Part shown: piece by piece, positions 31,353 through 55,088 of the stretch
How the letters are laid out: each line of letters begins with the position of its first letter
Numbering within the stretch: position 1 is the stretch's first letter
Translations under genes and position numbers: made by a program
The notes under the pieces: generated by a model
Seen by the model: only the letters and a program-made list of their open reading frames with translations
Told to the model about the DNA's origin: nothing
Databases searched by the model: none
Origin: PVC group bacterium
GTDB lineage: Bacteria > Omnitrophota > Gorgyraeia > B26-G9
Direction: 5' to 3'
Assembly (NCBI GenBank): GCA_024231215.1
Contig: JAAEQR010000003.1
Span: 22,660-86,659, forward strand
Length of the DNA stretch: 64,000 bases

Positions 31353-32825
31353 ATGAGGAAGGGACGGTATGTTGTTGTCGTTGCGGTAGCGGTTGCTTTG
31401 TTGTTGGCAGGGACTCAGTCAGCTTGGGCGCTGGACAGATTTTTAATTGGAGCACGCGGCGCAGGGATGGCTGGAGCTAATGTAGCGTGTGTAAATGATA
31501 CAACCGCGCAGTATTATAATCCGGCGGCGTTTGGTTTTATGGTTGAAGAAAGAAAAAAAGATACTGATCCGGGTAATTTTGCATGGGATACTAATATGGG
31601 GCTTGGATATCGTGTCCATGAAAATCTGGGAAAACTTTTGGATGATTTATCTAAAATAGATATTACGGAATTGGGTGCAAATGATATTCAGAACGAAACA
31701 GATTTGCAGAACTTGACTAAGGCGGCTGAGTTTATTAGCCGGCTTGATGATAAGGGAAACGCGATTAGTGTGGATGGCAATGCCGGCACAGGTGTTCGGA
31801 TAAATAATTTCGCGATCGGGGTGCGTGCTATGTATCAGGCTAGCGCAAGAGTTGCCACTGTTGATATAGCCAATCTGGGAATTGGAGTTAATATTGCTGG
31901 ACTAAATACTGATATTAATGCTGTTACATTAACGGGCGATGATGGACTGACATCTCTTTTCACCGGAGCGCAGGTAACACAGCTGACAACCGCAGGTTTA
32001 AATGCGGCTTCGATTCAACAGCTTGATTTCGCGGCAAGGCAAGCAGGGGTTAGTAGCGGGTCTACTGAATTACAACAGGCAGTTGACATGCTTGGTAGCG
32101 TTGCTACGGCAACAGCCAGTGCAACTGGTGGAGAAATTGAAAATAACACCACCAGCGCTGTATTAGAAGGATTTGGAGTGTATGAGATCCCGATTTCTTA
32201 CGGACGTGCCTTGAATGAGCATGTATCTATTGGTGGAAATCTGAAAATAATGAAGGGTAAAGTCTACGGGACCGAGATGATTGTTTTTAAAAATGATTCC
32301 GGCGATATTATGAAGGAAGCGGATGAAAATTATAAAGAGACTACGACTTTTGGTTTAGACCTGGGTGTAATGGCTAAATACGGAAAATTTAGCTACGGGC
32401 TTGTTGGCCGCAATTTAAATTCTCCAAAATTTGACGGGCCTACGGTTAATGCCAGAGTGTTCAATGATGTCACTATTGATCCTCAGGTTACTGCGGGTGT
32501 GGCATATCTTCCGTGGAACGGGTTGGTCTTAGAGTGTGATTATGATCTGACCAAGAGTGAAACAGGGTTGCCGGGATATGATACAAAGAACCTGTCTTTA
32601 GGTGTGGAATGGATGCTTATGCGGATTCTTTCTTTACGTGGTGGTATGTATGATAACATGGAAGAAAGCGATATCGGTTGGGTATATACAGCTGGTGTTG
32701 GTATAAATCTGCCATGGGTAAGCCTGGAAGTAGCCGGGGCGATGTCTTCTGATAAAAGTGATTATGACGGAGATAGTATTCCAGAAGAAAGTCGTGTTAC
32801 TGCACAGCTGAGCATTGGGTTTTAA
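31353..32825 (+). CDS. Outer-membrane beta-barrel protein, TraF_2/PorV/FadL-like
   Basis: Signal peptide ..TQSAWA, N-terminal GARGAGMAGANVACVNDTTAQYYNPAAFG, alternating beta-strand patterns, and a terminal ..AQLSIGF. Confidence 0.7.
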   Translation: MRKGRYVVVVAVAVALLLAGTQSAWALDRFLIGARGAGMAGANVACVNDTTAQYYNPAAFGFMVEERKKDTDPGNFAWDTNMGLGYRVHENLGKLLDDLSKIDITELGANDIQNETDLQNLTKAAEFISRLDDKGNAISVDGNAGTGVRINNFAIGVRAMYQASARVATVDIANLGIGVNIAGLNTDINAVTLTGDDGLTSLFTGAQVTQLTTAGLNAASIQQLDFAARQAGVSSGSTELQQAVDMLGSVATATASATGGEIENNTTSAVLEGFGVYEIPISYGRALNEHVSIGGNLKIMKGKVYGTEMIVFKNDSGDIMKEADENYKETTTFGLDLGVMAKYGKFSYGLVGRNLNSPKFDGPTVNARVFNDVTIDPQVTAGVAYLPWNGLVLECDYDLTKSETGLPGYDTKNLSLGVEWMLMRILSLRGGMYDNMEESDIGWVYTAGVGINLPWVSLEVAGAMSSDKSDYDGDSIPEESRVTAQLSIGF

Positions 32826-32860: not shown

Positions 32861-32896
32861 AGAGGAATTCCCTTTATGGGGATTCCTCTTTTTTTG
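32861..32896 (+). terminator. Strong intrinsic terminator after the beta-barrel gene
   Basis: 12-bp stem agaggaattccc / ggggattcctct with a 5-nt loop, followed by T8. Confidence 0.9.
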
Positions 32897-32958: not shown

Positions 32959-32987
32959 TTGCTGAGAATAGAAAAATATGGTATACT
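32959..32987 (+). promoter_or_regulatory. Cluster promoter P1 (TTGCTG-17 nt-TATACT, embedded in ATATGGTATACTT)
   Basis: Read directly from the sequence. It shares the ATATGGTATACTT block with P2-P6. Confidence 0.6.
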
Positions 32988-33020: not shown

Positions 33021-34271
33021 ATGACTGGATATGAAATGCGAAAAATATTAAAAATAACCGGATGTATTTTCCTGTTAGCGGGAGTTTTATGTAATGCGCA
33101 AATTGGGGTTTCTCAAGAAGCGTGTTCTAATAATTTACTATCTCCGCGGCTTTCATTACAGCAGGAACATTTTCTTAGGATTTTTTCTGCAGATAAAATT
33201 CCGGCTATTAGACGGACTACGGATAGTAAAACTACTTATTTACCTGCGGATTATAGTTTGGAGGTAAAGGAAATACTTGTCCAGGTGAATTATTGGGGAA
33301 CTATGGAATATGTGATAGACGAAATACATCAAAAACTTCCGCAAGATATTGCGATGGTTATCATTTTTAATGAACGCATTAAGCCGTATTTAGATTATGC
33401 TAAAAACAAGTTATCTTCTCGAAAAGTAAGATTTATAATGTCTGAAAAAATCAGCGTTTGGGCAAGAGATAATTATATCTATTCTTTTTCTAAAAACAAA
33501 CCGATAATGGTGTTTCCAGACGGAGAGTTGCTGCGTAATATGATAGAATTGACGACAGATAAAAGAGCTATCTATAAACTCGCGAAGAAGTTGAAAATAA
33601 AAATAAAACAGGCAAAGTTTCATTTTACCGCGGGTGATATTATGACGGATGAAGAAAATATATTTGTCGGTGCGGCTACTATGCAGGATAACTTTAATAG
33701 ATATAAAATGTCTTGGAAGGAAACGTCTAAAAAAATGCAGGCTTTATTTGGAAATCCGATAGAAGTTCTGCAATTAGATGTAAATGATATTGATAATGTG
33801 CTTACTCTTTTACCGGGCAAGCGGGCAGTATTGGGTAATAATGAGCAGTTTGATAGTTTTTTAAAGGGCCATTATCATGAAAAAGTTGGTGACATTAAAA
33901 AACGTTTACTGGAGTTAGGATATGCGGTTATTGATATCCCCTGGCGGCCGCATGAAATTGATCATGGCCATGCTGATACGACTACGCTGATCTCTTATAA
34001 TAATGTTGTCTTTTTAGACCGTGATAGAATACTTTTGCCTCAGTATGGAATACCGGCAGATAAGGAAGCCATAATGACTTGGGAGCAATTAGGCTATAAG
34101 GTTATCCCGGTTCAGGCATTTTGTAACGGGGAGCATGGCGGAAGTATTCGTTGTTTTACGAATATTATCAACGCTGATTTTATTAATTATGATTCCGAAG
34201 ATTCTTCTAGAATATTCTGTCCCTCAGTTTCTCTTCAGCCGTTAGAACAATTGATTGAAATGGCTATATAA
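33021..34271 (+). CDS. Tagged-family member 1: exported agmatine/peptidyl-arginine deiminase-like protein (guanidino-group-modifying fold)
   Basis: VWARDNY, FHFTAGDIMTDEENIFVG, HGHADTT and GEHGGSIRCFTN (catalytic Cys context). The leader is followed by LLSPRLSLQ and the C-terminus is QLIEMAI. An alternative start is the ATG at 33036. Confidence 0.75.
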   Translation: MTGYEMRKILKITGCIFLLAGVLCNAQIGVSQEACSNNLLSPRLSLQQEHFLRIFSADKIPAIRRTTDSKTTYLPADYSLEVKEILVQVNYWGTMEYVIDEIHQKLPQDIAMVIIFNERIKPYLDYAKNKLSSRKVRFIMSEKISVWARDNYIYSFSKNKPIMVFPDGELLRNMIELTTDKRAIYKLAKKLKIKIKQAKFHFTAGDIMTDEENIFVGAATMQDNFNRYKMSWKETSKKMQALFGNPIEVLQLDVNDIDNVLTLLPGKRAVLGNNEQFDSFLKGHYHEKVGDIKKRLLELGYAVIDIPWRPHEIDHGHADTTTLISYNNVVFLDRDRILLPQYGIPADKEAIMTWEQLGYKVIPVQAFCNGEHGGSIRCFTNIINADFINYDSEDSSRIFCPSVSLQPLEQLIEMAI

Positions 34272-34457: not shown

Positions 34458-37400
34458 ATGATTTCAGTATTAAGTCGTAATTTTTTCTTTAGAACAACCG
34501 CAATTATTTTAATTCAAGCATTTTTATTAATAGACATATCGTGGGCCTGTGGTGGGAGGCTTAATGATATTGATGACAGTAAGGTTTTTGAAGATAACTA
34601 CCTTGCTCCTTCCTTAATTATTAATCACTCTGACTTTTCAAGTTATTTTTCTAGTCCAGAAGATATTACTGCGAATCAATTCAGTAGTTTAAGTTCTGCA
34701 GAAATCGAAACCTTAACATATAAACTTGGCCTAACTCTTACCAATGAAAAGCAAGCAGCAAGAGAGATTGAAGAGATTAAGAAAGAACAATTTAAAATAA
34801 TGGATCAGTTTAGTGAAGGGTTAGAGAACAAGGAGCAACGTGAAAAAGCTTTGAATCAGGTAGTAAGAGATACCAATAAAGCGATTGATACTTTAAGGGC
34901 TGATTTTGTTGTGCAGGAGAGGGCAAAAGCTGAGTTAAAAATTAAAGCAGAAGAGTTGAAAATAGAAGCAGAAATTGCAAAGCTAAAATTAGGCAAAGAG
35001 AGAAGAGAAAACTTTGCGAAAGAAGCTCAGCAGGCATATGATCAGGAAATCGCCAAGCTTATTAAAGAAATCAAAGATGCCGCGAAATCAAAAAAAAGAA
35101 AGGCAGAGGAAGAGTATAAGGAACGTGTTAGCAAAATTGAGGAATGTGTTAGCAAAATTAAGGAGGGACTGCTTGAAGGAATATACATATCTGATTCGCT
35201 GGCTCAGGATATTGAAAAAATCAAGCAGGATACAAATGCCAGGATCCAAAAGATAGCTGCGGATATGCGTACTGAGAAGGGCTTTTTAAGCGATACAGTC
35301 AGGGGTATTATTATTGGCGTGTTTAAAATCGCCTGGTATTGGCCAAAAGGTAAGATAGCTGTTTTAAAGATTGAATTGAGCACTCATGAAGGTTATGATC
35401 TTAGCAAGTCTCGTAGTAGATTTAAGGCAGAAGTTAAGGAAATTAATAAATCTGCCAAGGCAGAGATAGAAGCGGTTAGGGACGGAAAAGATAAAAGGAC
35501 ACATAAACTTAAAGAAGAGCTTGATCAGGCTGGTTTAAATATTGAAAAAGATAAAACGAGGCTGGAACAGCTGGAATCAGATAAGAAAAAACAGCCGGAA
35601 ACAATTAGACAAGAAGTAGAAAACGCAATAAAAGAAGCTCAGAAAGATGCAGCTTTAAAAATCCTTAGCGGTCTTCAAGGTGATGAATATGTAGAACTCA
35701 GGCTGAAGGCTTTAGAAACTGTTTTGCCGCTGGTTAAATTATACGAAGACCGCCAGTCAGAAGGCCAGATGGACATGAGAATTGAAAGTAGGGAGGAGTC
35801 CATTGCCGCTTTATTTTTACGCGCGTATCGGGAAGGGCTTAGCGCTATTTCGATTACCGATGCTAAGCAATTACCTTCTCCTGAGGCGGCTAAGGCACAG
35901 CAGATTGTGAACAGACATATCAAGCGTTCTCGAAAGAAAAATGAAGATAAAAGAAAACCGCTGAAATATATTCCGGGAATCGAATTAGTCGTGTCTCTGG
36001 ACGGAGAGAAAGTTCCGGTAATTATCTATCTGCCGGAAAATTCACGTAACTTGGCGAACGATAAGACTGTTCAGGATTTGCTGGCGCGTAGAAGACCGTT
36101 TATGTTACAGGAACTCGCCCATATTTTATACGTATATAACGGAAAGATTGCTTTAGCCGATGCTCATAAATCTCTAAAAGCAGCGCAGATATTTTTTGAA
36201 CGCATGGCGGAATTTGTAATTAAAGGCAGGATCCCGTTGCGGTCCGTATTAGGGGTCGTATATTATGAAGGAACAAAGCAAAAATCTGATGAGCCGGACA
36301 GTCCGGAGAAACAGAAGCTGATGGAGTATATCGCCCGGCTTTGCGTACACCATCCGGTTTATAAACAGAGTGAGCTTTTCTTTCTGCCGGGAACTAATTT
36401 CAGCGGTAGTGTAGATCTGGAAAAGGAAAATATGCTCGGCAGCGGAGCGGATCGTCATCCGCATGAAACGAGTTATCGAGATAGGATTTTAAAGGCAGTA
36501 AATTATAAATCGGGATTATGGGAGAAGATTGTTTATGAATATGAGGGGTTTTTAAAAAACGTTTATATTTGGGGTTTAATGATTACGGCAGGTGTAACGA
36601 TTGTTGGGACACATTCACTTATTTTGGCCGGACTTTTTGCGGTGATGTTCTATTATTTGATTGCGACATATCCTGGATCTAAAAAAAGTGCATTAAAACA
36701 ACAGGTGCAAGTAATTCCCCAGGCAGATATTGCGTCAGAGGAAATGATGAAATACAAAGATTGGAAATTTGATCCGGCTAAAATTCCTCAACCCAAACCA
36801 GAAAGCGAAAAGAGTGCTTCTAAATGGGGAAAAGTGATGGAAACCGCAGGAAATATTTTTGATAAACTGGATATATTAGAAAATCTTTTTTATAGAGCGA
36901 CAGCCGGGACTAAGTATTTTGCCGGCAGTTTGAGAGAGCATTTAAATAAAAATAAGATCACAAATAACTTTTTCAGAAACGATTTGAAGCCCTGGCAAAA
37001 ATGGACTTTCTTTATTTCCAGTTTGACAATAAGCGGAGTATTGGCCGGTTGGTTGGCCGGCAGTGCATGGCTCGGAATTAAAATAGGGGCATTAGTCTGG
37101 GGTATTGCAATAGCGTTAAAGATTTTTGTGTACATAACCGATTGGGATATGGTGCTTTTACTTTTTGGATTTGCTGGTAGTGGGATAGCCGGATGGTTCT
37201 TGGGAAAAGACTACCCGTGGCAAGGAGCTTTTATTGGTCTTACCGGGTGGACGGGTTTTTTAAATAGGAAAGGAATAATATCCTTTTTTAGAGACAGAAT
37301 AAGAAAAGAGATTGATTTTTATAAACGTTTTAGGATGCTTGGGCCCAAGGCTGTTTTTATCCGAAAGACTCTGAAATTACAGCAGGATATGGCTAAGGGA

Positions 37401-38723
37401 ATTGTATATGTGAATATGGTGGGAAAATCGTTTGGCCTGAGAAAAATAGAGGTTGTGAATGTTTTGGCTAAACATGGTTTTGAATATGTAAAGATACAAG
37501 ATGCCAGCACATTGGTATTTGCCAAAAAGGACGTGATGAGAAGGATCGGAGCGGAATTTTTGAAAACAGCTTTAGAAAAATCCGGCACTTCCTGGGAGAA
37601 GATGACCGAGACTTTAAATAAGATCACAGAACATTTTGAAAAAATGCTGGTCGAGGTAACGCTGAGCACAGGGAACGGCAGGACACGTAAAATGTTTATC
37701 CCGGATCCGAGAGAAATTGCCGATGATCAGGTTATGTATAAGCTTTACCGGATTATCGCCATGTACAAGGCACAGGGATTAGTTTTGGAAAATCCCCAAA
37801 CCCGTCTGGTGGTTGATGTAAAAGGAGCGGACGGACAAGTCAGACCAGTTACAGCAAACGAATTGGCCTTAGTTATGAATAAATATTTTGACATTGTAGT
37901 ACCCATGCCGGAGGAGGGAAGTACGCCGGTGAAATCCAGGATTAGTCAGGGGGAGGTAAGGATACTGGAAGCTACCGGACAGCTTAATGAACTTTGGGAA
38001 CAAGGGGTTAAATCTTTAGTTTCGATCAACCTTGGTTCGCAGATCAGAGTGATTGTTGCGGAATTGCTCAAAGATGAAAAAATCGGAACAATTCGGGTAA
38101 CCTCTTATCCGACAGAATTAGGGCGTGACCTGATTGATTTTAGCTCCGAGGCCGGGAAATCGGTAGAAAGTTTGATCAGTGATCAGGCAATATTGGAGGC
38201 GGCGGAAGAGATGGGCTTACTGGAAACGATTGCGCGAGAGTTTAATATGGATAAGGAGAGCGTAACCCCTGAGCATATCGGACTGATCGCTGCCGGGCGA
38301 AATCCTTTTAATCAGGAGCAAGAGTTATACCAGCCTGTAGAGGTTAAAAAGTCGACGATGCATATGGGCAGTAAATATTTTGGCGGAGACACCGGGTCTA
38401 AGCTTGAGCGATTAGAGGCTGTGGCCCAGGAGTTATGGAAAAAGATAGATCGCAAAATAGCGGATTTTATCATCAAGCTGGATGCGGATAGAGCTGCGGA
38501 ACCGGGAAAGACCTCTTATCATCTTAGCGGAGAAACAATGACTTTGGATATCGCTAAGTTAAGAACGGAAAATTTGCGCCGGTTTCTTGAAGAGAAAAAG
38601 GCTGAGCATATCGAATTTTCCTGCGGGGAAGACCCCCTATCGGGAAACGCAATAATCGACCATGATTTAGAGCGGTCTTCTGAGATTACCGAACCTGCTT
38701 TGTTGGTTGAAATGGCGATTTAG
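34458..38723 (+). CDS. Tagged-family member 2: 1421-aa protein with a K/E-rich coiled-coil region and an internal multi-TM block
   Basis: Leader IILIQAFLLIDISWA, YLAPSLIIN box, Lys/Glu-rich heptad-like sequence at about nt 34720-35700, 6-7 hydrophobic helices at about nt 36560-37265, and C-terminus LLVEMAI. Confidence 0.85.
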   Translation: MISVLSRNFFFRTTAIILIQAFLLIDISWACGGRLNDIDDSKVFEDNYLAPSLIINHSDFSSYFSSPEDITANQFSSLSSAEIETLTYKLGLTLTNEKQAAREIEEIKKEQFKIMDQFSEGLENKEQREKALNQVVRDTNKAIDTLRADFVVQERAKAELKIKAEELKIEAEIAKLKLGKERRENFAKEAQQAYDQEIAKLIKEIKDAAKSKKRKAEEEYKERVSKIEECVSKIKEGLLEGIYISDSLAQDIEKIKQDTNARIQKIAADMRTEKGFLSDTVRGIIIGVFKIAWYWPKGKIAVLKIELSTHEGYDLSKSRSRFKAEVKEINKSAKAEIEAVRDGKDKRTHKLKEELDQAGLNIEKDKTRLEQLESDKKKQPETIRQEVENAIKEAQKDAALKILSGLQGDEYVELRLKALETVLPLVKLYEDRQSEGQMDMRIESREESIAALFLRAYREGLSAISITDAKQLPSPEAAKAQQIVNRHIKRSRKKNEDKRKPLKYIPGIELVVSLDGEKVPVIIYLPENSRNLANDKTVQDLLARRRPFMLQELAHILYVYNGKIALADAHKSLKAAQIFFERMAEFVIKGRIPLRSVLGVVYYEGTKQKSDEPDSPEKQKLMEYIARLCVHHPVYKQSELFFLPGTNFSGSVDLEKENMLGSGADRHPHETSYRDRILKAVNYKSGLWEKIVYEYEGFLKNVYIWGLMITAGVTIVGTHSLILAGLFAVMFYYLIATYPGSKKSALKQQVQVIPQADIASEEMMKYKDWKFDPAKIPQPKPESEKSASKWGKVMETAGNIFDKLDILENLFYRATAGTKYFAGSLREHLNKNKITNNFFRNDLKPWQKWTFFISSLTISGVLAGWLAGSAWLGIKIGALVWGIAIALKIFVYITDWDMVLLLFGFAGSGIAGWFLGKDYPWQGAFIGLTGWTGFLNRKGIISFFRDRIRKEIDFYKRFRMLGPKAVFIRKTLKLQQDMAKGIVYVNMVGKSFGLRKIEVVNVLAKHGFEYVKIQDASTLVFAKKDVMRRIGAEFLKTALEKSGTSWEKMTETLNKITEHFEKMLVEVTLSTGNGRTRKMFIPDPREIADDQVMYKLYRIIAMYKAQGLVLENPQTRLVVDVKGADGQVRPVTANELALVMNKYFDIVVPMPEEGSTPVKSRISQGEVRILEATGQLNELWEQGVKSLVSINLGSQIRVIVAELLKDEKIGTIRVTSYPTELGRDLIDFSSEAGKSVESLISDQAILEAAEEMGLLETIAREFNMDKESVTPEHIGLIAAGRNPFNQEQELYQPVEVKKSTMHMGSKYFGGDTGSKLERLEAVAQELWKKIDRKIADFIIKLDADRAAEPGKTSYHLSGETMTLDIAKLRTENLRRFLEEKKAEHIEFSCGEDPLSGNAIIDHDLERSSEITEPALLVEMAI

Positions 38724-38772
38724 CGATAATAGTTTATAACTATCTTAAAATAAATAAGTTACATTCTATCCC

Positions 38773-38801
38773 TTGACGAAGTATGCCTTATATGGTATAC
38801 T
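38773..38801 (+). promoter_or_regulatory. Cluster promoter P3 (CCTTGACG-17 nt-TATACT)
   Basis: TTGACG at 38773-38778 and TATGGTATACTTTAC, with the hexamer at 38796-38801. Confidence 0.7.
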
Positions 38802-38861
38802 TTACTACCTATTTTTAAATAATCCAAACTATAATAATAACCTATTGGGAGAAAACAAGTT

Positions 38862-41800
38862 ATGGGTATCAATAAGAAATACCTATATCTAAGAATTATT
38901 GCATGTATTCTAATACAGGCGGTTTTGTTTGGTAACAGCGGCTTGATCGGAGTAGTGCGCGCAGAAAACTTCCTGTCGCCGGTTTTAGAAATAAATAATA
39001 AGCTGGTTAAGACTTCGTTTGAAACTCCTCAGGTAAAAAGTCGTCGTTTTGTTCATAATCTGGATGATTTATCAAAACTTTCCCGCCGCAAAAGAGATGA
39101 TCTCGAAATAAATGTTCTTAAAAGAATTAGAAATATTAATCTCAAAGGTTTTAATTTTTTATCAAGGGAGGAGCAGGAGAATTTCATTTTTGTTGATTTG
39201 GACTTTGCGGAGTATGTGTTAAAGACTATCTTTACCGATAAGATTAAAGAGGACATGTCTCAGAAGAACGTATCTTATGAAATCATAACAAGGATTATAG
39301 TAGACATGTTTATTCTTTTAAACAAGGTGTTAGAACAACAAGAAGGACAGGATAATACCTATATCGCATGCACTAATTATACTTTTTCTAAAGATAGAAA
39401 AGGACAGACATATGTACTCACGGTTAATTTTGAGAAAAAAGGAGTGGAAGCTAAAATATCAAAATTTATAGCCGAAGAAATTGATGCAGAAATGCCGAAT
39501 ATTGTCTCAGTGTCCGGGCCGATAGAAAAAATCACTGGAAATAAAAGTATAGATGTTAGTTTTTACGGGGTTTCAAAAAATAACAAAGTGCTTACCCCAT
39601 CGGAAATAACCCGAGCAGTGAAGAAGCTGCCGCCGAACGCAGAGAATATAGATATTTCGGAATTAAGAATTGCGCATAAAAGATTACTTAATTTGGCCAG
39701 AGATCGTTACGAAAAACAGGATATTTTAAAAGAAATAACCCCAGCCATAGAGAGGAAAATAAAAACAGGTATTGTTGCGGAAGGGACATCTTCTTTTACC
39801 CCGATTACTGAGAAGGCTTTTGTGGGAAAGATTATTTGCGCGGAAGTGGTAGAAAAAGAGAAAAAGCCGACATATCCTTTAGTTTCATATTATTCGGAAA
39901 CATTGAGGAAAGATCTGAGATTATTAGATAATGCTATAAATACGGCTATGTATAAGTATGAAGGTATAGATATTAATACGGTTCATCATTTTTTGCAGGA
40001 TGCCTTTGCGTTTGCAAGACATGATTCTCGGGAAACACGCAAGGCTCCGACAGCTCAATTTTTATCGCATCTTATGGATGAGCGGAAGGCAGTGCGGGTT
40101 AGAATTCGAAAGGAATTATTGGAGATTATTACATATACGCCGATGTTAAATAAAGACAATGAGCCAAGAGAGATTTCGGAAATCATGGAGGAAGAGCTAG
40201 CTGAGTTAGCGGAACTGCAAGATTACGAAGACAATATGTATATCTGGGGAGAACTGAACAGGCTTAATCAAGAGGATTTGCTATGGGATAACATCATGTC
40301 TCAAGCAAATGAAATTGTGGGTAATATATATCAATATATAGAAGGAGTGGACCCTGAACCTAAAAATGAAAAAGAGCAGATGGCTTTAGATGCGATTGAA
40401 AATGCGAGGAAGGCAGTCCCAACAGATACTCAAATTGGGTCTATGGTCGATACTGTATTACAAGATCTGCCGCGGCAGTTATTTGCCTGGTTAAGAAAAT
40501 ATGATTGTTCTTTACATGAGGCGTTTTTTCGGTCTATGCAACCTATTGTAGACCAGTTAGTTCAAGCTCAAGAACATACGTCGCAAATGAAAGGAGGGCT
40601 TTCTTTAAATCTCCATACCGAACTTTGTACTTTTGTGGATACTGTATTGTTGGAACTGGGAGAGTATGAATCGCGGCATGTAGTGGTACATAATGACTCG
40701 GAGAAGGAGCCATTTATATTATATGTGCCGGGAGACCTAGGAGGGCCGGAGGAATATTTGCGTTTTCGGCGTCTTTATCCGAATATGGTAGGGATTGTAG
40801 TTAAAGAAGGAGCTAAACATTATGCGGTAATGGCCGGAGATCACGGATTCCCGGTGATTAATAAAATTGATTTAATTGAAATGAGCGAAGGAAAATTGCC
40901 GTTAGAGCTGGTGTTAAAAAAGAAAACTAATGGAATTATGCGTATTAGCAGGGGAGGGAAAGCGTTTTTATATATAAACCCTTCATTGAGGGATACCCTT
41001 GAGGCGGAAACTATTATAAAAACAGCGCAGGCAATTAAAATATTGTGTGAAGCTAATATAGATTTAGAAGGAGAAGATGGGAAATTAAAGACGTATGATG
41101 GAGTAGAAGCGCCTGAGATAATGATGAATTTGGATATTGCCGAAGATGCGGAAGACTTGCCGAGCCGGGTAATACGGAAAATAGGTCTTTATCGTACAGA
41201 ATATGAGTATGAACGTCATGGAGAGTTAACAGAAGAAGCATGGTATAAAATTTTTAAGAAAATTGTTAAAGATTCAGAGGGCGATTTTATCGCTGTACGT
41301 TTACCGGATAGAAAAGTATCCGGAGAAGGTGGGGATATAAAAAATCCTAAAGCTTTTGGAAAAAGTAATCTTGAAGGACTTGATTTTTTGCTTGATGAAA
41401 GAGCTAAGGGCAGGCGAATCTCAACGATAATATTAAGGGCCCTTATGAGAGTATATGCAGAAGACGGAGTCGTAGGTGCTCTTTTTCCCATGGTTTCGCA
41501 AGAAAGAGCCGAAGGAATAATCGACTTTGTCGAAGAAATAAAAGAGAATTTAATCTTTGAACAAAAAAATAAAAATAAGCGGGAAGCTTTGGAAGAGGCG
41601 TTAGACAGCTTTTCCGTGGGAGCGATGTTTGAAACTCCTCAGGCTTTTGAATTTAAAAAAGAGCTTATGGAGATTTTTGATTTTGTAAGTTGGGGGAGTA
41701 ATGACTGGAAGATGGCTTCTTCCGGGAAGTCAAGAGGTGCTCAGGGAACGACCAAAGAATTGATTTCATTTACGCCTGAGGTTGTAAAAACCGCATTAGC

Positions 41801-42191
41801 GGCAGGTAAGATGAGCAGGAAGAAGGAAGTACCTTTTTCTATCTGTGGTAAGCTTGCGTCTACCCCTGAATTCATTCTATTTTCACTATATGCAAAGTCG
41901 TTGTCGCTTTTTGATATCCGACTAAGCGTTGGTAAAGATTCTATAGCGTACGTCAAAGAATTTATTCGCCATGTCGATACTAGACGCATTAAAGATATCT
42001 TTAATGATTATCGAAAAGGTTATGATCAGAATAAATTTGATGAGAAAATAGCAGATGAAATAGAAAACATAGTGCTTTCTATGGGAGAATTAGCCAAGCC
42101 TTTTCTACAGGGACAAGTTAAGATGTCGTTACAGAAGAAAAGGGGGCAGGCATCGAAGGCTCCTGTGTTAGTGCATGAGTATGCAATATAA
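38862..42191 (+). CDS. Tagged-family member 3: 1109-aa protein whose C-terminal half resembles PEP-utilising enzymes (swivel His-domain plus TIM barrel, PtsI/PPDK-like)
   Basis: GAKHYAVMAGDHGFPVI (compare GGxTSHAAIxARxxGIPAV), GLYRTEYEY (compare GLFRTEFL), LFPMVS, VGAMFETPQAF, FVSWGSNDW (compare SIGTNDL) and FSICGKLAS (compare CGEMAG). Leader ILIQAVLF, FLSPVLEIN box, C-terminus LVHEYAI. Confidence 0.8.
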   Translation: MGINKKYLYLRIIACILIQAVLFGNSGLIGVVRAENFLSPVLEINNKLVKTSFETPQVKSRRFVHNLDDLSKLSRRKRDDLEINVLKRIRNINLKGFNFLSREEQENFIFVDLDFAEYVLKTIFTDKIKEDMSQKNVSYEIITRIIVDMFILLNKVLEQQEGQDNTYIACTNYTFSKDRKGQTYVLTVNFEKKGVEAKISKFIAEEIDAEMPNIVSVSGPIEKITGNKSIDVSFYGVSKNNKVLTPSEITRAVKKLPPNAENIDISELRIAHKRLLNLARDRYEKQDILKEITPAIERKIKTGIVAEGTSSFTPITEKAFVGKIICAEVVEKEKKPTYPLVSYYSETLRKDLRLLDNAINTAMYKYEGIDINTVHHFLQDAFAFARHDSRETRKAPTAQFLSHLMDERKAVRVRIRKELLEIITYTPMLNKDNEPREISEIMEEELAELAELQDYEDNMYIWGELNRLNQEDLLWDNIMSQANEIVGNIYQYIEGVDPEPKNEKEQMALDAIENARKAVPTDTQIGSMVDTVLQDLPRQLFAWLRKYDCSLHEAFFRSMQPIVDQLVQAQEHTSQMKGGLSLNLHTELCTFVDTVLLELGEYESRHVVVHNDSEKEPFILYVPGDLGGPEEYLRFRRLYPNMVGIVVKEGAKHYAVMAGDHGFPVINKIDLIEMSEGKLPLELVLKKKTNGIMRISRGGKAFLYINPSLRDTLEAETIIKTAQAIKILCEANIDLEGEDGKLKTYDGVEAPEIMMNLDIAEDAEDLPSRVIRKIGLYRTEYEYERHGELTEEAWYKIFKKIVKDSEGDFIAVRLPDRKVSGEGGDIKNPKAFGKSNLEGLDFLLDERAKGRRISTIILRALMRVYAEDGVVGALFPMVSQERAEGIIDFVEEIKENLIFEQKNKNKREALEEALDSFSVGAMFETPQAFEFKKELMEIFDFVSWGSNDWKMASSGKSRGAQGTTKELISFTPEVVKTALAAGKMSRKKEVPFSICGKLASTPEFILFSLYAKSLSLFDIRLSVGKDSIAYVKEFIRHVDTRRIKDIFNDYRKGYDQNKFDEKIADEIENIVLSMGELAKPFLQGQVKMSLQKKRGQASKAPVLVHEYAI

Positions 42192-42202
42192 AAGAGGATA
42201 TT

Positions 42203-44296
42203 ATGGGATTTTCTGGTAAAAAAAGATCGGGCAAATCAATATCTTCACGAATTATCACCCTGATAATTCTACAGATCTTTTTTGTCTCAGGATTGTTGTC
42301 CCTAGGCAATAGCTTTGCTGCGGATACTCACCAAACCTGCCTTTCTCCCCGTGTAAATATATCTAATGCGCTAGTCAAAAATTCTTTTAGTACCTTTAAA
42401 AAGCTTAATTTAAATGATTTGTTTGAAGGATTTGCAGAGGGTATTCTAGACATCGATAAGGTAGATCACTGGTTAGTTGGTCGCAATGAATCTATCGCTT
42501 ATGAGTTTAAAACAGATTTAGTTCCTAAAATTGTACAACAACCCAATGCAAAATGGTTTTTAGAACAAATACTTGCAGAAGATAAACTTAAGCCATTACA
42601 TTTTGAAGCCCAAGCTGTTCTTTTGCAGATACGTTTTAAAGAGCTTGGATATCCTAACCATAACCCAGCCTGGAGACATTTTATATCTTCGATGAAAGAA
42701 GGGCTTCAATTCCTGGAAAACCCTGAAAACTTAGAGAATAAGGATGTAGTTATCGGCACTTGTCATGTGGCTGCGGATTCGGATTCTGTGGCTGCGGCAA
42801 TTACGTGGTATGAACGGGAAAGAATGTTAGCAGAGAATCGAGGAAAGGTTTTTATTCCTTTGATCTCTAATGAGGACAGGGATATAAATCTTGAAACAGA
42901 GAGACAATTGCATATTTGTGGGATAATAGCAGAGGATCTGATATACGCTTTTCCTAGTAAAGAGATGGAGAAAAGAGGCGAGGTTAAAAGCCTGATACAG
43001 CAGAAACTTGAGGCTATTGCTAAAACAAAATATAAGAGTAGAATAAAAATTGATTTGCTCGATCATAATGCGGTACAGGTTGACTGGTTAAAACCTTTTA
43101 AAGTACGTAAGATATATGATCATCATAACCCGGAAGTGGATATGCCGGAATTGGCCCCGGGAAATGATTATGTCCGCATTGAAGCCTCCACGACAACCAT
43201 AATTGCTCAGGAAAACATGAAAGATCGTATTTTCCATAGATCATTTCCACAGATAAAGTTTTTGACTATGGCTACCTTGCTTTCAGATACAGACTGTTTA
43301 AATTCAGATATTACACAGCAAGAAACTCTCGGGATTTTATCTCGGATGGCAAAGGATATGGGTTTTTTAAAAAAAGTGCAGTTAAATGGCGGCATAGGCT
43401 CTAGTGGTAAGATTGATTTTGAAAAAATGGAACGCTATTTTGAAATCATAGTTGATAGGGTTTATCTGAACCGGCATTCTTATGTAGAGGAATGGCTGAG
43501 GGATTGTAAGACATATAATGGGTTTGAATTCGGCCAGTCAAAAGTTATATCTTGGGAAGAGTTGTCTGAGAAAAAAGAAATGGAATTAATCGAAGGCATG
43601 AGAAATAAACTTAATGAAAACGATGACAATGAAGCTATTGTTTGGATGGTATCTTCAATGAATCCGTCTGAGTATGGCAGTAAATTTTATGCAATATGTA
43701 AAGATGACCCAGATGGGGCTAAGGCAGAACAGATTATTAGCCAGGTGATGTATCAAAGTCCGGTAAGGATCGGGCTGGTGCGGTCGATATATGTGAATCC
43801 GGCAATACATGCGTACCAGAAAGACTCTCCGGTGAATCCAGTGAGAGTTTTGAATAGAGCTTATAGACAATTTGATCTTAATCTGGATAGATCAACCAAG
43901 AAACAGATGATGGAAAAGATAAGCAATTTGATACAAGATTATGGAAGTAGATTGAAAAGGGATTTGGTTTATAGATATTATTCGTATGAAATAACCAGTG
44001 ATATAATTGAATTTCTGGAGTCAAAAGGCATATCCTGGATACATGCGGAAGTAATGAAGCCGGAAAAAATATATATCGAGGAAATAGGATTAAAAAACGA
44101 AAGAACGCGCAGGGTTCAAATGCCTGGATTTGCTTCCCGGAAGAATATAAAAAATGAGGTTGAAGGCGCAGTCGCGGAAATCATCAGAATAAATAAAGCT
44201 GAGAGGACATTGCGTTTGAACCTCCGCAATGAAATTATGGGCGCTGATGCTGCTTTTGGAATTCAAGCAAAAGAGTTAGTCTTACAGGCTATTTGA
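42203..44296 (+). CDS. Tagged-family member 4: DHH-family phosphoesterase-like protein (family II pyrophosphatase / nanoRNase-type motifs)
   Basis: CHVAADSDSVAAA (DxD), LLDHNAV, IYDHHNP (DHH) and TLLSDTDCL motifs. Leader IILQIFFV, CLSPRVNIS box, C-terminus ELVLQAI. The start is 11 nt after the previous stop. Confidence 0.8.
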   Translation: MGFSGKKRSGKSISSRIITLIILQIFFVSGLLSLGNSFAADTHQTCLSPRVNISNALVKNSFSTFKKLNLNDLFEGFAEGILDIDKVDHWLVGRNESIAYEFKTDLVPKIVQQPNAKWFLEQILAEDKLKPLHFEAQAVLLQIRFKELGYPNHNPAWRHFISSMKEGLQFLENPENLENKDVVIGTCHVAADSDSVAAAITWYERERMLAENRGKVFIPLISNEDRDINLETERQLHICGIIAEDLIYAFPSKEMEKRGEVKSLIQQKLEAIAKTKYKSRIKIDLLDHNAVQVDWLKPFKVRKIYDHHNPEVDMPELAPGNDYVRIEASTTTIIAQENMKDRIFHRSFPQIKFLTMATLLSDTDCLNSDITQQETLGILSRMAKDMGFLKKVQLNGGIGSSGKIDFEKMERYFEIIVDRVYLNRHSYVEEWLRDCKTYNGFEFGQSKVISWEELSEKKEMELIEGMRNKLNENDDNEAIVWMVSSMNPSEYGSKFYAICKDDPDGAKAEQIISQVMYQSPVRIGLVRSIYVNPAIHAYQKDSPVNPVRVLNRAYRQFDLNLDRSTKKQMMEKISNLIQDYGSRLKRDLVYRYYSYEITSDIIEFLESKGISWIHAEVMKPEKIYIEEIGLKNERTRRVQMPGFASRKNIKNEVEGAVAEIIRINKAERTLRLNLRNEIMGADAAFGIQAKELVLQAI

Positions 44297-44379
44297 TCAA
44301 TTTGTACCCAGTCGTAAACCCGCCGCAAAATTTATTTCTAACCATCTGAAAATAAAAGACTTAAAAATCTCGCCAGACC

Positions 44380-44408
44380 TTGACAGGTTGTATTTCATAT
44401 GGTATACT
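44380..44408 (+). promoter_or_regulatory. Cluster promoter P4 (CCTTGACA-17 nt-TATACT)
   Basis: TTGACA at 44380-44385 and ATATGGTATACTTTACC, with the hexamer at 44403-44408. A GC hairpin gggccg/cggccc (44436-44456) lies in the leader. Confidence 0.7.
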
Positions 44409-44480
44409 TTACCGCTTTTATAATAATTAATGTAGGGGCCGCGCTCGGCTCGGCCCGAATAGTCTATAGAAGAGGTAAAT

Positions 44481-46349: not shown

Positions 46350-46363
46350 AGGAAGGTAAAAAT

Positions 46364-49183: not shown

Positions 49184-49215
49184 GTGACAAGTTACGAGTG
49201 ACAGGTGAGAAGTTA
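49184..49215 (+). repeat. Short tandem AGTGACARGT-type motif block immediately after the stop codon
   Basis: GTGACAAGTTAC (49184-49195), GTGACAGGTGAG (49198-49209) and AAGTTA (49210-49215). A related block occurs at 60734-60778. Confidence 0.4.
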
Positions 49216-49217
49216 AT

Positions 49218-49255
49218 GCCCCCCTTCCGGGAATATCCGGGAGGGGGTTTTTGTT
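49218..49255 (+). terminator. Strong intrinsic terminator
   Basis: GC-rich stem ccccccttccgg / ccgggaggggg (about 11 bp) followed by tttttgtttt. Confidence 0.9.
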
Positions 49256-49380
49256 TTGTACTCGTATAGTTTGGCAATCATCCATCGCTATGTGGCGCTT
49301 AAGCCGCAGCGCATCTTTAACTCTCTGCGAATAAAACACTTAAATCTTCCATTTTTTTATAATAAAATCCCTTCTAGCTA

Positions 49381-49409
49381 TTGAAAAAAGCCAAATCATA
49401 TGGTATACT
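49381..49409 (+). promoter_or_regulatory. Cluster promoter P5 (TTGAAA-17 nt-TATACT)
   Basis: TTGAAA at 49381-49386 and ATATGGTATACTTTACC, with the hexamer at 49404-49409. Confidence 0.65.
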
Positions 49410-49475
49410 TTACCGATTTTATTTATCATTTTTTAGCAACTTTTTAAAGTGTATTTAAGAAAGAAGGAGTTTTTT

Positions 49476-55019: not shown

Positions 55020-55048
55020 TTGGTGAATGGTTGATCGTGAATAGTTTT

Positions 55049-55070: not shown

Positions 55071-55088
55071 AACTGATATATAATTAAT

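What the first reader, a model, noticed from the sequence alone, without database searches (positions are those of the whole stretch)
33021..34271. Exported deiminase-like enzyme (guanidino-modifying fold) carrying the family tag
The motifs VWARDNY, TAGDIMTDEENIFVG, HGHADTT and GGSIRCFTN follow the order and spacing I associate with agmatine deiminase and Porphyromonas-type peptidyl-arginine deiminase, including the catalytic Cys near the C-terminus. A signal-bearing member of this fold suggests modification of an extracellular or foreign-cell arginine or agmatine substrate. The best-known secreted example, PPAD, is a cargo of a dedicated secretion system with a C-terminal signal. That parallels the tag seen here.
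Basis: partly seen in the sequence, partly recalled or inferred. Interest (0 to 1): 0.6.

Follow-up and report, generated by a model that had tools for sequence, protein, structure and literature searches.

The report
Exported deiminase-fold protein lacking catalytic histidine
This gene encodes an exported protein of the agmatine/peptidyl-arginine deiminase fold that keeps the reactive cysteine but has aspartate in place of the usual catalytic histidine. It is one of at least eleven proteins in this probable Omnitrophota genome that share an apparently undescribed N-terminal leader and a short C-terminal tail.

Summary
The ORF is real: 33021..34271 on the + strand, with the likely true start at 33036. 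It belongs to the Porphyromonas-type PAD / agmatine deiminase family. Pfam PF04371 scores 36.4 bits against a cut-off of 25. The AlphaFold model has pLDDT 83, and its best Foldseek matches are agmatine deiminases and PPAD (E about 1e-18 to 1e-15). NCBI already names it "agmatine deiminase family protein" (MCP4648502.1, PVC group MAG).

The fourth, HGHADTT, is not the histidine motif. It lies in a lineage-specific insertion. The canonical H-x-D position reads D256-I-D258. Asp occupies that column in 7 of 151 aligned relatives, and those relatives share other rare residues. The protein is therefore a His-less Cys/Asp variant. Its activity and substrate are unknown.

Export is plausible, because it has a Sec-type signal. 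The "tag" is real: an LSP box after the signal and a ...L[IV]E-x-A-I-COOH tail, on 11 otherwise unrelated proteins here and on proteins in other Omnitrophota MAGs. It is a tail of 6-9 residues, not a T9SS C-terminal domain. The adjacent PorV/TraF-like barrel gene is not conserved next to tagged genes elsewhere. This is a new variant of a known kind, of moderate interest.

The parts
32862..32895 (+). Terminator-like hairpin (GAGGAATTCCC...GGGGATTCCTC followed by a T run) that ends the upstream TraF_2/PorV-like gene. It separates that gene's transcript from the deiminase-like gene.
   Evidence: Sequence; the scan flags the inner stem at 32869-32882.
32959..32987 (+). Promoter-like element TTGCTG-N17-TATACT with an extended -10 box (TGGTATACT at 32979-32987). 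The same extended -10 box precedes five other tagged genes in the window.
   Evidence: TGNTATACT gives 8 matches against 1.96 expected, and 0 of 100 shuffles reach 8. A TGATATACT box sits at the equivalent place upstream of the homologue on L001.
33021..34271 (+). ORF of the deiminase-fold protein, 416 aa from the first ATG. The probable true start is ATG 33036 (411 aa, identical to NCBI MCP4648502.1).
33036..33098 (+). Sec-type signal peptide MRKILKITGCIFLLAGVLCNA. It has a basic n-region, a 13-residue hydrophobic core and a small-residue C-N-A site. It is not a credible lipobox.
   Evidence: Hydropathy peak of 2.3-2.6 at aa 9-16. AF2 models helix 3-30 followed by disorder. The cleavage site is inferred, not predicted by a dedicated tool.
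33138..33161 (+). 'LSP box' (LSPRLSLQ), the N-terminal half of the family tag, with consensus [LI]-[SA]-P-x-[LIV]-x-[ILFMV]-[NSQ]. It lies in a low-confidence linker.
   Evidence: The box is aligned in all 11 tagged proteins, with P invariant. P0002 conserves it as LSPQLSLQ. pLDDT is below 50 at aa 29-53.
33228..34190 (+). Pentein (five-bladed alpha/beta propeller) domain of the PAD_porph / agmatine deiminase family, about aa 70-390.
   Evidence: Pfam PF04371. AF2 pLDDT is mostly above 90 here. Foldseek matches 2ewo, 6b10, 2jer, 3h7c and PPAD. The profile matches PDB sequences at E=1e-13.
33456..33476 (+). VWARDNY. W147 and D150 are the W-x-R-D motif, and D150 is the first guanidinium-binding Asp (equivalent to PPAD Trp127 and Asp130).
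   Evidence: Residue roles are from PMC4893104.
33627..33671 (+). TAGDIMTDEENIFVG, the repeat-II 'EGG' motif. The usual acidic residue at aa 203 is Thr, as in PPAD (QTGGNYMTDG).
   Evidence: Position 203 is E or D in 122 of about 148 relatives, but never in the D256 members.
33783..33842 (+). NDIDNVLTLLPGKRAVLGNN, the true His-motif position. D256 (33786-33788) replaces the catalytic His. D258 (33792-33794) is the retained second guanidinium-binding Asp.
   Evidence: Column counts are H 144 and D 7. In the direct alignment, Q N-D-I-D equals 1xkn G-H-V-D and PPAD N-H236-V-D238. Two independent MAFFT alignments agree.
33963..33983 (+). HGHADTT, a lineage-specific insertion in the loop before the SYNN strand. 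It is not the family His motif.
   Evidence: It is an insert state in hmmalign, is gapped in 39-51 of 74 relatives, and reads FETETD or FGTETD in P0002 and P0003.
33993..34004 (+). SYNN. N328 is invariant and is the equivalent of PPAD Asn297.
   Evidence: N328 is present in 155/155; alignment; role from PMC4893104.
34137..34163 (+). GGSIRCFTN. C378 is the nucleophile (equivalent to PPAD Cys351). R377 replaces the His of the canonical G-x-x-H-C, as in most of this clade.
   Evidence: C378 155/155, G374 155/155, R377 139/155; alignment.
34242..34268 (+). C-terminal tail LEQLIEMAI-COOH, the C-terminal half of the family tag. The stop codon is at 34269-34271.
   Evidence: The tail is conserved as EQLVEMAI and EKLIEMAI in P0002 and P0003, while the preceding ~20 residues diverge. 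The same kind of tail ends 10 other proteins in the window and leader-bearing proteins in other Omnitrophota MAGs.
31353..32825 (+). Context: an outer-membrane beta-barrel of the TraF_2 / PorV-PorQ-like (FadL-type) superfamily, immediately upstream.
   Evidence: Pfam TraF_2 1.4e-31. NCBIfam PorV_fam scores 50.8 bits, below its cut-off of 90. The adjacency is not seen in L001-L006.
34458..60730 (+). Context: nine further contiguous genes with the same leader, LSP box and tail. They are 34458-38723, 38862-42191 (PEP-utilizers_C), 42203-44296 (DHH), 44481-46349, 46364-49183 (patatin), 49449-55019, 55089-56639, 56668-57936 and 58097-60730 (TPR). An eleventh member lies at 15252-16244.

Best explanation
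The gene encodes a Sec-exported protein whose body is a pentein-fold domain of the agmatine deiminase / Porphyromonas-PAD family. It belongs to a small, old sub-branch in which the general acid/base histidine is replaced by aspartate (D256) and the acidic residue of the repeat-II 'EGG' motif is also lost.

The rest of the guanidinium-handling site is intact: W147, D150, D258, N328, G374 and Cys378. The most likely function is therefore still to bind a guanidino group (an arginine side chain or an arginine/agmatine-like small molecule) outside the cytoplasm and to attack it with Cys378. The D256 carboxylate would shuttle protons in place of the imidazole. The result would be a deiminase, or a related amidino-transfer or adduct-forming enzyme, with altered kinetics or specificity.

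The protein is one member of a co-regulated set of at least eleven otherwise unrelated proteins. They share an N-terminal leader with an LSP box, a C-terminal L-[VI]-E-x-A-I tail, and in most cases a near-identical promoter. Several carry enzyme domains that normally work in the cytoplasm (PEP-utilising, DHH, patatin). This set looks like a secreted or surface-displayed arsenal of an Omnitrophota bacterium, routed by a sorting mechanism that is not described in the sources I could search.

Shown: fold, family, residue pattern, tag, promoter sharing and purifying selection. Inferred: export, catalytic competence, substrate class, the role of D256, and the meaning of the tag.
For: Family and fold. 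Pfam PAD_porph is above its cut-off. The profile matches solved agmatine deiminases and PPAD at E=1e-13 to 1e-12. The AF2 model has pLDDT 83.1 and pTM 0.77. Foldseek top hits are agmatine deiminases (TM 0.67-0.77) and PPAD, with DDAH, amidinotransferases and PAD2 far behind.

Active site. Of the five polar residues that PMC4893104 calls strictly conserved in these enzymes (Asp130, His236, Asp238, Asn297 and Cys351), four are kept (D150, D258, N328, C378) and His is Asp256.

The Asp variant is not a one-off. It occurs in the window protein, its two homologues, P0111 (a module in a 6938-aa protein), P0107 and P0153. All of these keep Cys, both Asp and Asn, and all lack E/D at position 203. They share rare residues at positions 75, 108, 143, 228, 260 and 331, and a basic residue at 372.

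Selection. dN/dS is 0.24-0.36 against the two homologues.

Export. The N-terminus has a basic n-region and a hydrophobic core.

Tag. 10 of 35 plus-strand ORFs end in [AG][IV], against 0 of 33 on the minus strand. Tagged proteins share only their first 50-100 aa. The leader and tail recur together in four loci from three other Candidatus Omnitrophota MAGs.

Shared promoter. TGGTATACT lies 40-73 nt upstream of six tagged genes.
Against: In every characterised hydrolase of this superfamily the His is the general acid/base (PMC6447857 and PMC4893104). I know of no biochemically characterised member with Asp there, so activity is unproven and the protein may be inactive. I could not read model coordinates, so I could not test whether D256 or any His (H311, H315, H317, H372) lies near Cys378. 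Only three sequences of the immediate lineage exist, so conservation arguments are thin. No signal-peptide predictor was available. The tag's function is entirely inferred. The deiminase-like protein's own leader lacks the IQAFL...D..WA core that the other tagged proteins share.
Confidence: 0.5

Rival explanations
1. It is a pseudoenzyme: a pentein scaffold that has lost turnover because the catalytic His is gone. It would be kept as an exported guanidino/arginine-binding module, for example an adhesin or a substrate trap for arginine-rich surface molecules of a host or prey cell.
For: The canonical His is Asp and the repeat-II acidic residue is lost. The superfamily does contain non-catalytic members: Foldseek also hits T. 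brucei RESC5, which I recall, from my own knowledge, as a DDAH-fold protein without enzyme activity. dN/dS of 0.24-0.36 is somewhat relaxed.
Against: Cys378, D150, D258 and N328 are retained in all D256-type sequences across very distant organisms. Retaining the nucleophile is not needed for binding alone. No sequence among the 155 relatives has lost the Cys.
Confidence: 0.28
2. It is an ordinary agmatine deiminase (AguA/AIH, EC 3.5.3.12) of polyamine metabolism, as the database name suggests.
For: NCBI names it 'agmatine deiminase family protein'. The best structural matches are agmatine deiminases.
Against: No NCBIfam agmatine deiminase equivalog hit at E<=0.1. Identity to solved agmatine deiminases is only 12-16%. 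The catalytic His and the EGG acidic residue are missing. The protein carries an export signal and the family tag. No arginine decarboxylase, N-carbamoylputrescine amidase or putrescine carbamoyltransferase gene lies in the 64 kb. Its closest relatives are a large uncharacterised clade with signal peptides and a GGA[VI]RC motif.
Confidence: 0.04
3. It is a PPAD-like protein citrullinase secreted by a type IX-like system. The C-terminal tag would act as the secretion signal, and the adjacent PorV-like barrel as its shuttle.
For: A PorV/PorQ/TraF_2-like barrel gene lies directly upstream. The repeat-II motif T-[AG]-G-x-x-M-T-D resembles PPAD's QTGGNYMTDG. PPAD is among the structural hits.
Against: Only 38 residues follow Cys378, and only a 6-9 residue tail is conserved, so there is no room for a T9SS beta-sandwich CTD or for PPAD's Ig-like domain. 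PPAD's C-terminal-arginine-binding Arg152 and Arg154 align with I175 and L177. The barrel scores below the PorV family cut-off. It is separated from the gene by a terminator. No such barrel lies near tagged genes in L001-L006. No other T9SS component was detected in the window.
Confidence: 0.06
4. The scaffold has been recruited for a different chemistry or substrate. For example, it could be an amidinotransferase, or a Cys-dependent hydrolase acting on a non-guanidino amide or ureido compound of a target cell envelope.
For: The superfamily spans hydrolases and transferases that use the same Cys (PMC6447857). Positions 203, 256, 260 and 372 change together in the D256 subgroup. The co-tagged neighbours are diverse enzymes.
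Against: Both guanidinium-clamping Asp residues and the Asn are retained, which argues for a guanidino ligand. There is no positive evidence for any other substrate.
Confidence: 0.12

Closest known systems
Agmatine deiminase / agmatine iminohydrolase (AguA, AIH; PDB 6B10, 2JER, 2EWO, 3H7C, 6NIB)
   Same: It has the same pentein fold (Foldseek E 3e-18 to 1e-16, TM 0.67-0.77) and the same Pfam family. The order of motifs is the same: W-x-R-D, x-G-G, [H/D]-x-D, S-Y-x-N and G-G-x-x-x-C. The Cys, both Asp and the Asn are conserved.
   Different: Identity is only 12-16%. The catalytic His is Asp256, and the EGG Glu is Thr203. The motif G-G-S-I-R-C has Arg where agmatine deiminases have His. The protein has an export signal and a tag. 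It has no pathway neighbours and no equivalog HMM hit.
Porphyromonas gingivalis peptidyl-arginine deiminase (PPAD; PDB 4YT9, 4YTG, 5AK7)
   Same: It shares the Pfam family and fold. Like PPAD it is an exported member of the family. It has a similar repeat-II motif with Thr in place of Glu. Four of PPAD's five catalytic residues are matched.
   Different: His236 aligns with Asp. Arg152 and Arg154, which give PPAD its C-terminal-Arg specificity, are not conserved. There is no Ig-like domain and no T9SS C-terminal domain, only a short tail. The organism is not a Bacteroidota member.
Uncharacterised PAD_porph-like clade with C-terminal GGA[VI]RC[LV]TNV
   Same: These 226 cluster representatives at E<1e-3 are the nearest sequence relatives. 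Most have an N-terminal signal or membrane anchor. R377 precedes the Cys, the Y-N-N motif is present, and P340, Y342 and D347 are conserved.
   Different: 95% of them keep H-x-D and an acidic residue at 203. None outside the immediate lineage carries the ExAI tail. The window lineage is a very rare branch: only two hits have E<1e-30 among 1.84 billion representatives.
C-terminal sorting and secretion signals (T9SS CTD; T1SS C-terminal signals; PEP-CTERM, GlyGly-CTERM and LPXTG-type sorting domains)
   Same: A conserved motif at the extreme C-terminus is shared by many unrelated exported proteins of one organism. From my own knowledge, the acidic-then-hydrophobic ending is reminiscent of the endings of some T1SS protease substrates.
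   Different: It is not a folded CTD. It has no transmembrane segment or basic tail like the sortase, exosortase and rhombosortase signals. It is combined with a Sec signal, which T1SS substrates lack, and is paired with an N-terminal LSP box. No NCBIfam or Pfam model recognises it.

Membership tests
Pentein / guanidino-group modifying enzyme superfamily, PAD_porph family (PF04371) | Significant match to the family HMM above the curated threshold | tested here: met
   36.4 bits against a gathering score of 25, E=4.6e-9, covering profile positions 48-318 of 321. A profile of relatives hits 6B10, 1XKN and PPAD at E 1e-13 to 1e-12.
Pentein / guanidino-group modifying enzyme superfamily, PAD_porph family (PF04371) | Five-repeat alpha/beta propeller (pentein) fold | tested here: met
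   The AF2 model has pLDDT 83.1 and pTM 0.77. Foldseek top hits are agmatine deiminases and PPAD, with probability 1.00 and TM up to 0.77.
Pentein / guanidino-group modifying enzyme superfamily, PAD_porph family (PF04371) | Nucleophilic Cys near the C-terminus (PPAD Cys351) | tested here: met
   C378 lies in GGSIRC, a column that is Cys in 155/155 relatives and aligns to the Cys of 1XKN and PPAD.
Pentein / guanidino-group modifying enzyme superfamily, PAD_porph family (PF04371) | Two acidic guanidinium-binding residues (PPAD Asp130, Asp238) and the conserved Asn (Asn297) | tested here: met
   D150, D258 and N328 lie in the corresponding columns. Residue roles are from PMC4893104.
Pentein / guanidino-group modifying enzyme superfamily, PAD_porph family (PF04371) | Catalytic general acid/base His (PPAD His236, MtAIH His224) | tested here: not met
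   The column is His in 144 relatives and Asp in 7. The window protein has D256. The direct alignment gives N-D-I-D against G-H-V-D and N-H-V-D. HGHADTT is an insertion elsewhere. Whether another His reaches the site in 3D could not be tested, because no coordinates were available.
Agmatine deiminase proper (AguA/AIH, EC 3.5.3.12) | Match to a curated agmatine deiminase equivalog model | tested here: not met
   No NCBIfam family of this kind matches at E<=0.1.
Agmatine deiminase proper (AguA/AIH, EC 3.5.3.12) | Genomic association with agmatine/putrescine pathway genes | tested here: not met
   Pfam scans of the window's ORFs found no arginine decarboxylase, N-carbamoylputrescine amidase or putrescine carbamoyltransferase. 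Only 64 kb were examined.
Agmatine deiminase proper (AguA/AIH, EC 3.5.3.12) | Conversion of agmatine to N-carbamoylputrescine | not testable with these tools
   This needs an enzyme assay.
PPAD-type T9SS cargo | Folded C-terminal beta-sandwich secretion domain (CTD) after the catalytic and Ig-like domains | tested here: not met
   The protein ends 38 residues after Cys378. Residues 391-416 are modelled at low confidence (10-residue block means 49-59, with pLDDT below 50 at 399-406) and contain short helices. Only the last 8-9 residues are conserved among homologues.
PPAD-type T9SS cargo | Arg152 and Arg154, which bind the free carboxylate of a C-terminal arginine | tested here: not met
   These columns hold I175 and L177 in the window protein. 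The alignment in this loop is of modest reliability.
PPAD-type T9SS cargo | T9SS machinery in the genome | tested here: inconclusive
   Only a TraF_2/PorV-PorQ-like barrel is present, and it scores below the PorV cut-off. No other component is seen in 64 kb. The rest of the genome was not available.
Omnitrophota leader/tail-tagged protein set (not described in the sources searched) | N-terminal signal followed by an [LI]-[SA]-P-x-[LIV]-x-[ILFMV] box | tested here: met
   The LSPRLSL box lies at aa 40-46, after the signal. The hydrophobic core lacks the IQAFL..D..WA signature of the other members, so the leader is a divergent example.
Omnitrophota leader/tail-tagged protein set (not described in the sources searched) | C-terminal hydrophobic-[VI]-[E/x]-x-[AS]-[IV]-COOH tail | tested here: met
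   The protein ends ...LIEMAI. The neighbouring gene ends with the identical EMAI, and the tail is conserved in P0002 and P0003. The same class of tail occurs on leader-bearing proteins in L003-L006.

The most novel reading that the evidence does not exclude
The most novel reading has two parts. First, the protein would represent an old, functionally distinct sub-branch of the PAD/agmatine-deiminase family that works with a Cys-Asp rather than a Cys-His active site. The same module also appears inside a giant multi-enzyme protein of 6938 aa. Second, it would be delivered by a previously undescribed, Omnitrophota-wide, two-ended sorting signature: a leader with an LSP box plus a ...E-x-A-I-COOH tail. 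That signature would mark a co-regulated arsenal of exported enzymes (deiminase-like, patatin, DHH, PEP-utilising) aimed at a host or prey cell.
Probability: 0.3. Interest if true: 0.7.

Novelty: new variant of a known kind. Interest (0 to 1): 0.45.

Why it matters
Omnitrophota are uncultured, ultra-small bacteria suspected of living as predators or parasites, and how they attack or attach to other cells is unknown. This window offers a defined, co-regulated set of exported enzymes marked by a simple two-ended signature. That signature would give a handle for listing the phylum's secreted proteins from sequence alone, and for finding the machinery that recognises them. The deiminase-fold member is the one with the clearest chemistry to test. 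Does a Cys/Asp site still deiminate arginine-type groups, and on what target? For enzymologists, a conserved His-to-Asp swap would test how essential the histidine is in a superfamily where the Cys/His pair is treated as invariant. If the protein proves inactive or ordinary, the finding reduces to a divergent, already annotated family member.

Tried and rejected
- Single-sequence search against PDB sequences found nothing relevant. The four-sequence lineage profile also found nothing. Only the 37-sequence profile reached solved structures.
- NCBIfam gave no family for this protein or for the tag.
- The word-indexed protein search found only 4 relatives, then 6 with a profile. The exhaustive HMMER search was needed to see the wider clade.
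- The exact-sequence contig look-up for the window protein itself found no record.
- A genome-collection scan with the TraF/PorV-like protein found no relatives.
- The full 11-sequence leader alignment was too divergent for a locus scan. As a protein profile it returned only one fragment. A four-sequence leader alignment worked.
- I tested whether gene order around the deiminase-like gene is conserved. It is not: the contigs of P0002 and P0003 have different neighbours.
- I tested whether PorV-like genes accompany tagged genes elsewhere. They do not.
- I considered a lipoprotein signal (I-T-G-C at aa 12-15) and rejected it. Only about 9 residues precede the Cys, and the motif is not conserved in P0002.
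- I considered double-glycine (C39 peptidase) leaders and prepilin signals as explanations for the leader and LSP box. I rejected both from my own knowledge of their consensus sequences, because the spacing is wrong, there is no G-G, and there is no G-F-T-L-I-E.
- I looked for a compensating His shared by all Asp256-type sequences and found none.
- A neighbour-joining tree at these distances (about 0.8) was too noisy to decide whether the Asp256 sequences are monophyletic. Their shared rare residues suggest that they are.
- The literature I could search on Omnitrophota giant and secreted proteins mentions neither a deiminase nor this signature.
Full report
**The object.** The window has a 416-codon ORF at 33021..34271 on the + strand. 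Its product is identical, from Met6 onward, to NCBI protein MCP4648502.1, [quoted passage not shown], on a 104-kb contig. The ATG at 33036 is the likelier start. It is the one NCBI uses, and it is the one conserved in the closest homologue's gene on locus L001, where the upstream ATG is absent. A hairpin with a T run follows the upstream gene at 32862-32895. A promoter-like TTGCTG-N17-TATACT with an extended -10 box (TGGTATACT, 32979-32987) precedes the ORF, so the gene appears to be transcribed on its own.

Pfam PAD_porph (PF04371) matches at E=4.6e-9 and 36.4 bits against a gathering score of 25, over almost the whole profile. An AlphaFold2 model built on a 37-sequence alignment has mean pLDDT 83.1 and pTM 0.77, with the core at aa 70-390 mostly above 90. 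Foldseek against the PDB puts agmatine deiminases first (2EWO, 6B10, 2JER, 3H7C, 1VKP and 6NIB; E 3e-18 to 1e-16; target TM 0.67-0.77). PPAD follows at E about 1e-15. DDAH, amidinotransferases and mammalian PADs are well behind. The fold and family assignment is solid. It is also not new, since the database already carries that name.

**The catalytic residues.**
- PMC4893104 lists five polar residues as strictly conserved in these enzymes and as mediating PPAD catalysis: Asp130, His236, Asp238, Asn297 and Cys351. The His acts as general acid/base on the face opposite the Cys.
- PMC6447857 describes the same roles for His224, Asp226 and Cys366 of plant agmatine iminohydrolase. [quoted passage not shown]
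- I aligned the window protein with 154 relatives from the exhaustive HMMER search. The family columns are C378 (155/155), N328 (155/155), G374 (155/155), D150 (144/144 ungapped), W147 (142), D258 (133 D, 15 G) and position 256 (144 His, 7 Asp).
- The window protein has Asp at 256. Two independent MAFFT alignments give the same placement. So does a direct profile alignment with fragments of two solved structures: window V-N-D-I-D-N-V-L, 1XKN T-D-G-H-V-D-D-M, PPAD Y-I-N-H236-V-D238-C-W.
It is an insert state relative to the profile and is gapped in most relatives. The two nearest homologues read FETETD and FGTETD there.

**Is the Asp an accident?** Probably not.
- The seven Asp256 sequences are the window protein (present twice in the alignment, as the 416-residue ORF translation and as NCBI's 411-residue call, P0001), P0002 (69% identical), the fragment P0003, P0111 (a module inside a 6938-aa protein), P0107 (350 aa, with a signal peptide) and P0153 (499 aa, from a GC-rich organism).
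- All of them keep Cys, both Asp and the Asn.
- All lack the acidic residue of the repeat-II "EGG" motif at position 203 (T, T, gap, L, V, H), which is E or D in 122 of about 148 His-type relatives.
- Three or all four lineages share residues that are rare elsewhere: P75, Q108, K143, Y228, V260 and F331. They also share a basic residue at 372 (H, R, K, R).
- No histidine is common to all four lineages, so there is no shared compensating His.
- A neighbour-joining tree was too noisy to show monophyly.
- Within the immediate lineage the gene is under purifying selection, with dN/dS 0.24-0.36.
- I read this as a conserved sub-branch with a remodelled active site rather than a decaying gene. No tool here can say whether it turns over substrate. 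I also could not access model coordinates to check the geometry around Cys378.

**How rare is it, and what are its relatives?** Among 1.84 billion cluster representatives, only two hits have E<1e-30 and 226 have E<1e-3. The wider relatives form an uncharacterised clade. Most have N-terminal signals or anchors, and they share a C-terminal GGA[VI]RC[LV]TNV motif instead of the GGG-x-HC-x-TQQ of textbook agmatine deiminases (the textbook motif is from my own knowledge). There is no NCBIfam agmatine deiminase equivalog match. No polyamine-pathway gene lies in the window. The substrate is therefore open. One small pointer is the repeat-II motif F-T-A-G-D-I-M-T-D, which resembles PPAD's Q-T-G-G-N-Y-M-T-D more than the E-G-G of agmatine deiminases. 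Against that, PPAD's carboxylate-binding Arg152 and Arg154 align with I175 and L177.

**Export.** From Met6 the sequence reads MRKILK, then a 13-residue hydrophobic core (ITGCIFLLAGVLC, hydropathy 2.3-2.6), then N-A-Q. AF2 models a helix here, followed by a disordered linker. This is a typical Sec signal. A lipobox reading is not credible. No dedicated predictor was available, so cleavage is inferred.

**The family tag.**
- Eleven + strand ORFs in the window have three things in common: a signal-like N-terminus, a box [LI]-[SA]-P-x-[LIV]-x-[ILFMV]-[NSQ] a few to about 25 residues later, and a C-terminus of the type L-[VI]-E-x-A-I. The endings are LVEYAI, LIEMAI, LVEMAI, VHEYAI, LVLQAI, AISISI, LVNIAI, LIGMAI, FVESAI, LLEQAV and LVEQGV.
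- Ten of 35 long plus-frame ORFs end in [AG][IV], against 0 of 33 on the minus strand.
- Apart from the first 50-100 residues the proteins are unrelated. Their bodies include PEP-utilizers_C, DHH, patatin and TPR domains.
- In the deiminase-like lineage the last 8-9 residues are conserved (EQLIEMAI, EQLVEMAI, EKLIEMAI) while the preceding 20 diverge. The LSP box is conserved too.
- Scanning one genome per GTDB species with the leader found four loci, all in "Candidatus Omnitrophota bacterium" MAGs. In each locus the leader-bearing large proteins end in the same kind of tail: LLEQAI, VGSAI, IMQAI, LVEQAI, LVSQSI, LVGQAI, LIEQSI, IVESAI and YIAQSI.
- The window is therefore most likely from Omnitrophota, and the two-ended signature is a trait of that lineage.
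- Neither Pfam nor NCBIfam recognises the signature. Two Omnitrophota papers on large and secreted proteins that I could search do not mention it.

**Shared promoter.** TGGTATACT occurs six times on the + strand, each time 40-73 nt upstream of a tagged gene (33036, 34458, 38862, 44481, 49449 and 58097). The consensus is CCTTGACA-N17-TATGGTATACTTTAC. The looser pattern TGNTATACT gives 8 matches against 1.96 expected, and none of 100 shuffles reaches 8. The eleventh tagged gene, at 15252, has GTGTATACTTTA. None of the housekeeping genes in the first 31 kb has the box. The tagged genes thus look co-regulated, or descended from a duplicated promoter-plus-leader cassette.

**The T9SS/PPAD parallel.**
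- The gene upstream (31353-32825) is a TraF_2-family barrel (1.4e-31) with a sub-threshold PorV/PorQ match (50.8 bits against 90).
- Against it, the tag is a short tail and not a folded C-terminal domain.
- The barrel gene is followed by a terminator.
- The homologues P0002 and P0003 have different neighbours.
- No such barrel lies near tagged genes in the four other Omnitrophota loci. One of those loci has PilM/N/O genes nearby instead.
- No other T9SS component is in the window.
- I therefore treat the parallel as unsupported, though the whole genome was not examined.

**Verdict.** What is actually there is a rare, exported, His-less (Cys/Asp) variant of the PAD/agmatine-deiminase fold. It is embedded in a co-regulated island of leader/tail-tagged proteins that appears characteristic of Omnitrophota.

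My best explanation, at confidence about 0.5, is a still-functional guanidino-binding and Cys-dependent enzyme, with Asp256 taking over proton transfer, acting outside the cell. A pseudoenzyme or binding module is the main rival (about 0.28). An ordinary agmatine deiminase or a T9SS-type PPAD analogue are both unlikely.

The deiminase-like protein on its own is a new variant of a known kind and is moderately interesting. The sorting signature and promoter regulon seen alongside it may be the more valuable lead.

Noticed in passing
window 15252-16244 and 33021-60730; loci L003 43-12532, L004 130-2601 and 9986-13054, L005 9965-17852, L006 9998-19925: A two-ended signature marks large, otherwise unrelated proteins here and in three other Candidatus Omnitrophota MAGs. 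It consists of a leader (...IILIQAFLxLDFAWA...), an [LI][SA]PxLxI box and a C-terminal ...[VI]-[E/x]-x-[AS]-I tail. No Pfam or NCBIfam model recognises it, and it is not mentioned in the two Omnitrophota papers searched.
   Followed up: partly
window 32979, 34393, 38793, 44400, 49401, 58034 (+ strand); variant at about 15200: An identical extended -10 box, TGGTATACT, lies 40-73 nt upstream of six tagged genes. The consensus is CCTTGACA-N17-TATGGTATACTTTAC. It is not seen before the housekeeping genes in the window, which suggests a regulon or a duplicated promoter-leader cassette.
   Followed up: partly
window 38862-42191, 42203-44296, 46364-49183: Enzyme domains that normally work in the cytoplasm carry the export leader and the tail: the PEP-utilising enzyme PEP-binding domain, DHH phosphoesterase and patatin-like phospholipase. 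This pattern is typical of effectors acting in another cell.
   Followed up: no
window 25925-28153: A patatin-like phospholipase is fused to an Omp85-type barrel. From my own knowledge this is the architecture of PlpD-like type Vd autotransporters. It does not carry the family tag.
   Followed up: no
window 29851-32825: A sigma-54 activator (AAA+ domain plus Fis-type HTH, with no receiver domain found), an ACT-pair protein and a TraF_2/PorV-PorQ-like outer-membrane barrel lie directly upstream of the tagged island. The barrel's adjacency is not conserved in other loci.
   Followed up: partly
proteins P0111 (6938 aa), P0015 (3569 aa), P0085 (2959 aa), P0138 (1000 aa): The same PAD_porph-like module occurs inside giant multi-domain proteins. 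P0111 and P0015 also contain a repeated ...L-T-E-[LI]-A-K-E-V-H-P-G-Q-G-[MK]-G... element between modules (three copies in P0111, one in P0015). This could be a linker or a processing site. It is absent from the window.
   Followed up: partly
relatives P0020, P0031, P0037, P0042, P0059, P0062, P0088, P0089 and others: A second active-site variant exists in the wider clade. In 15 of 155 relatives the motif reads H-x-G (e.g. HHIGM) instead of H-x-D, so the second guanidinium-binding Asp is lost while the His and Cys are kept.
   Followed up: no
window 1-64000: Nearly all genes are on the + strand, and GC skew is strongly positive throughout (0.13-0.32 per 2 kb). GC content is about 38%. Only 14124-15078 appears to be coded on the - strand.
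   Followed up: no
window 34458-38723; protein P0158: The 1421-aa neighbour shares the identical EMAI ending with the deiminase-like protein. It has a long Lys/Glu-rich, coiled-coil-like N-terminal half and hydrophobic segments in the middle. A 77-aa fragment from another sample (P0158) is a close match to its leader (E 1.7e-14 against the leader profile).
   Followed up: no
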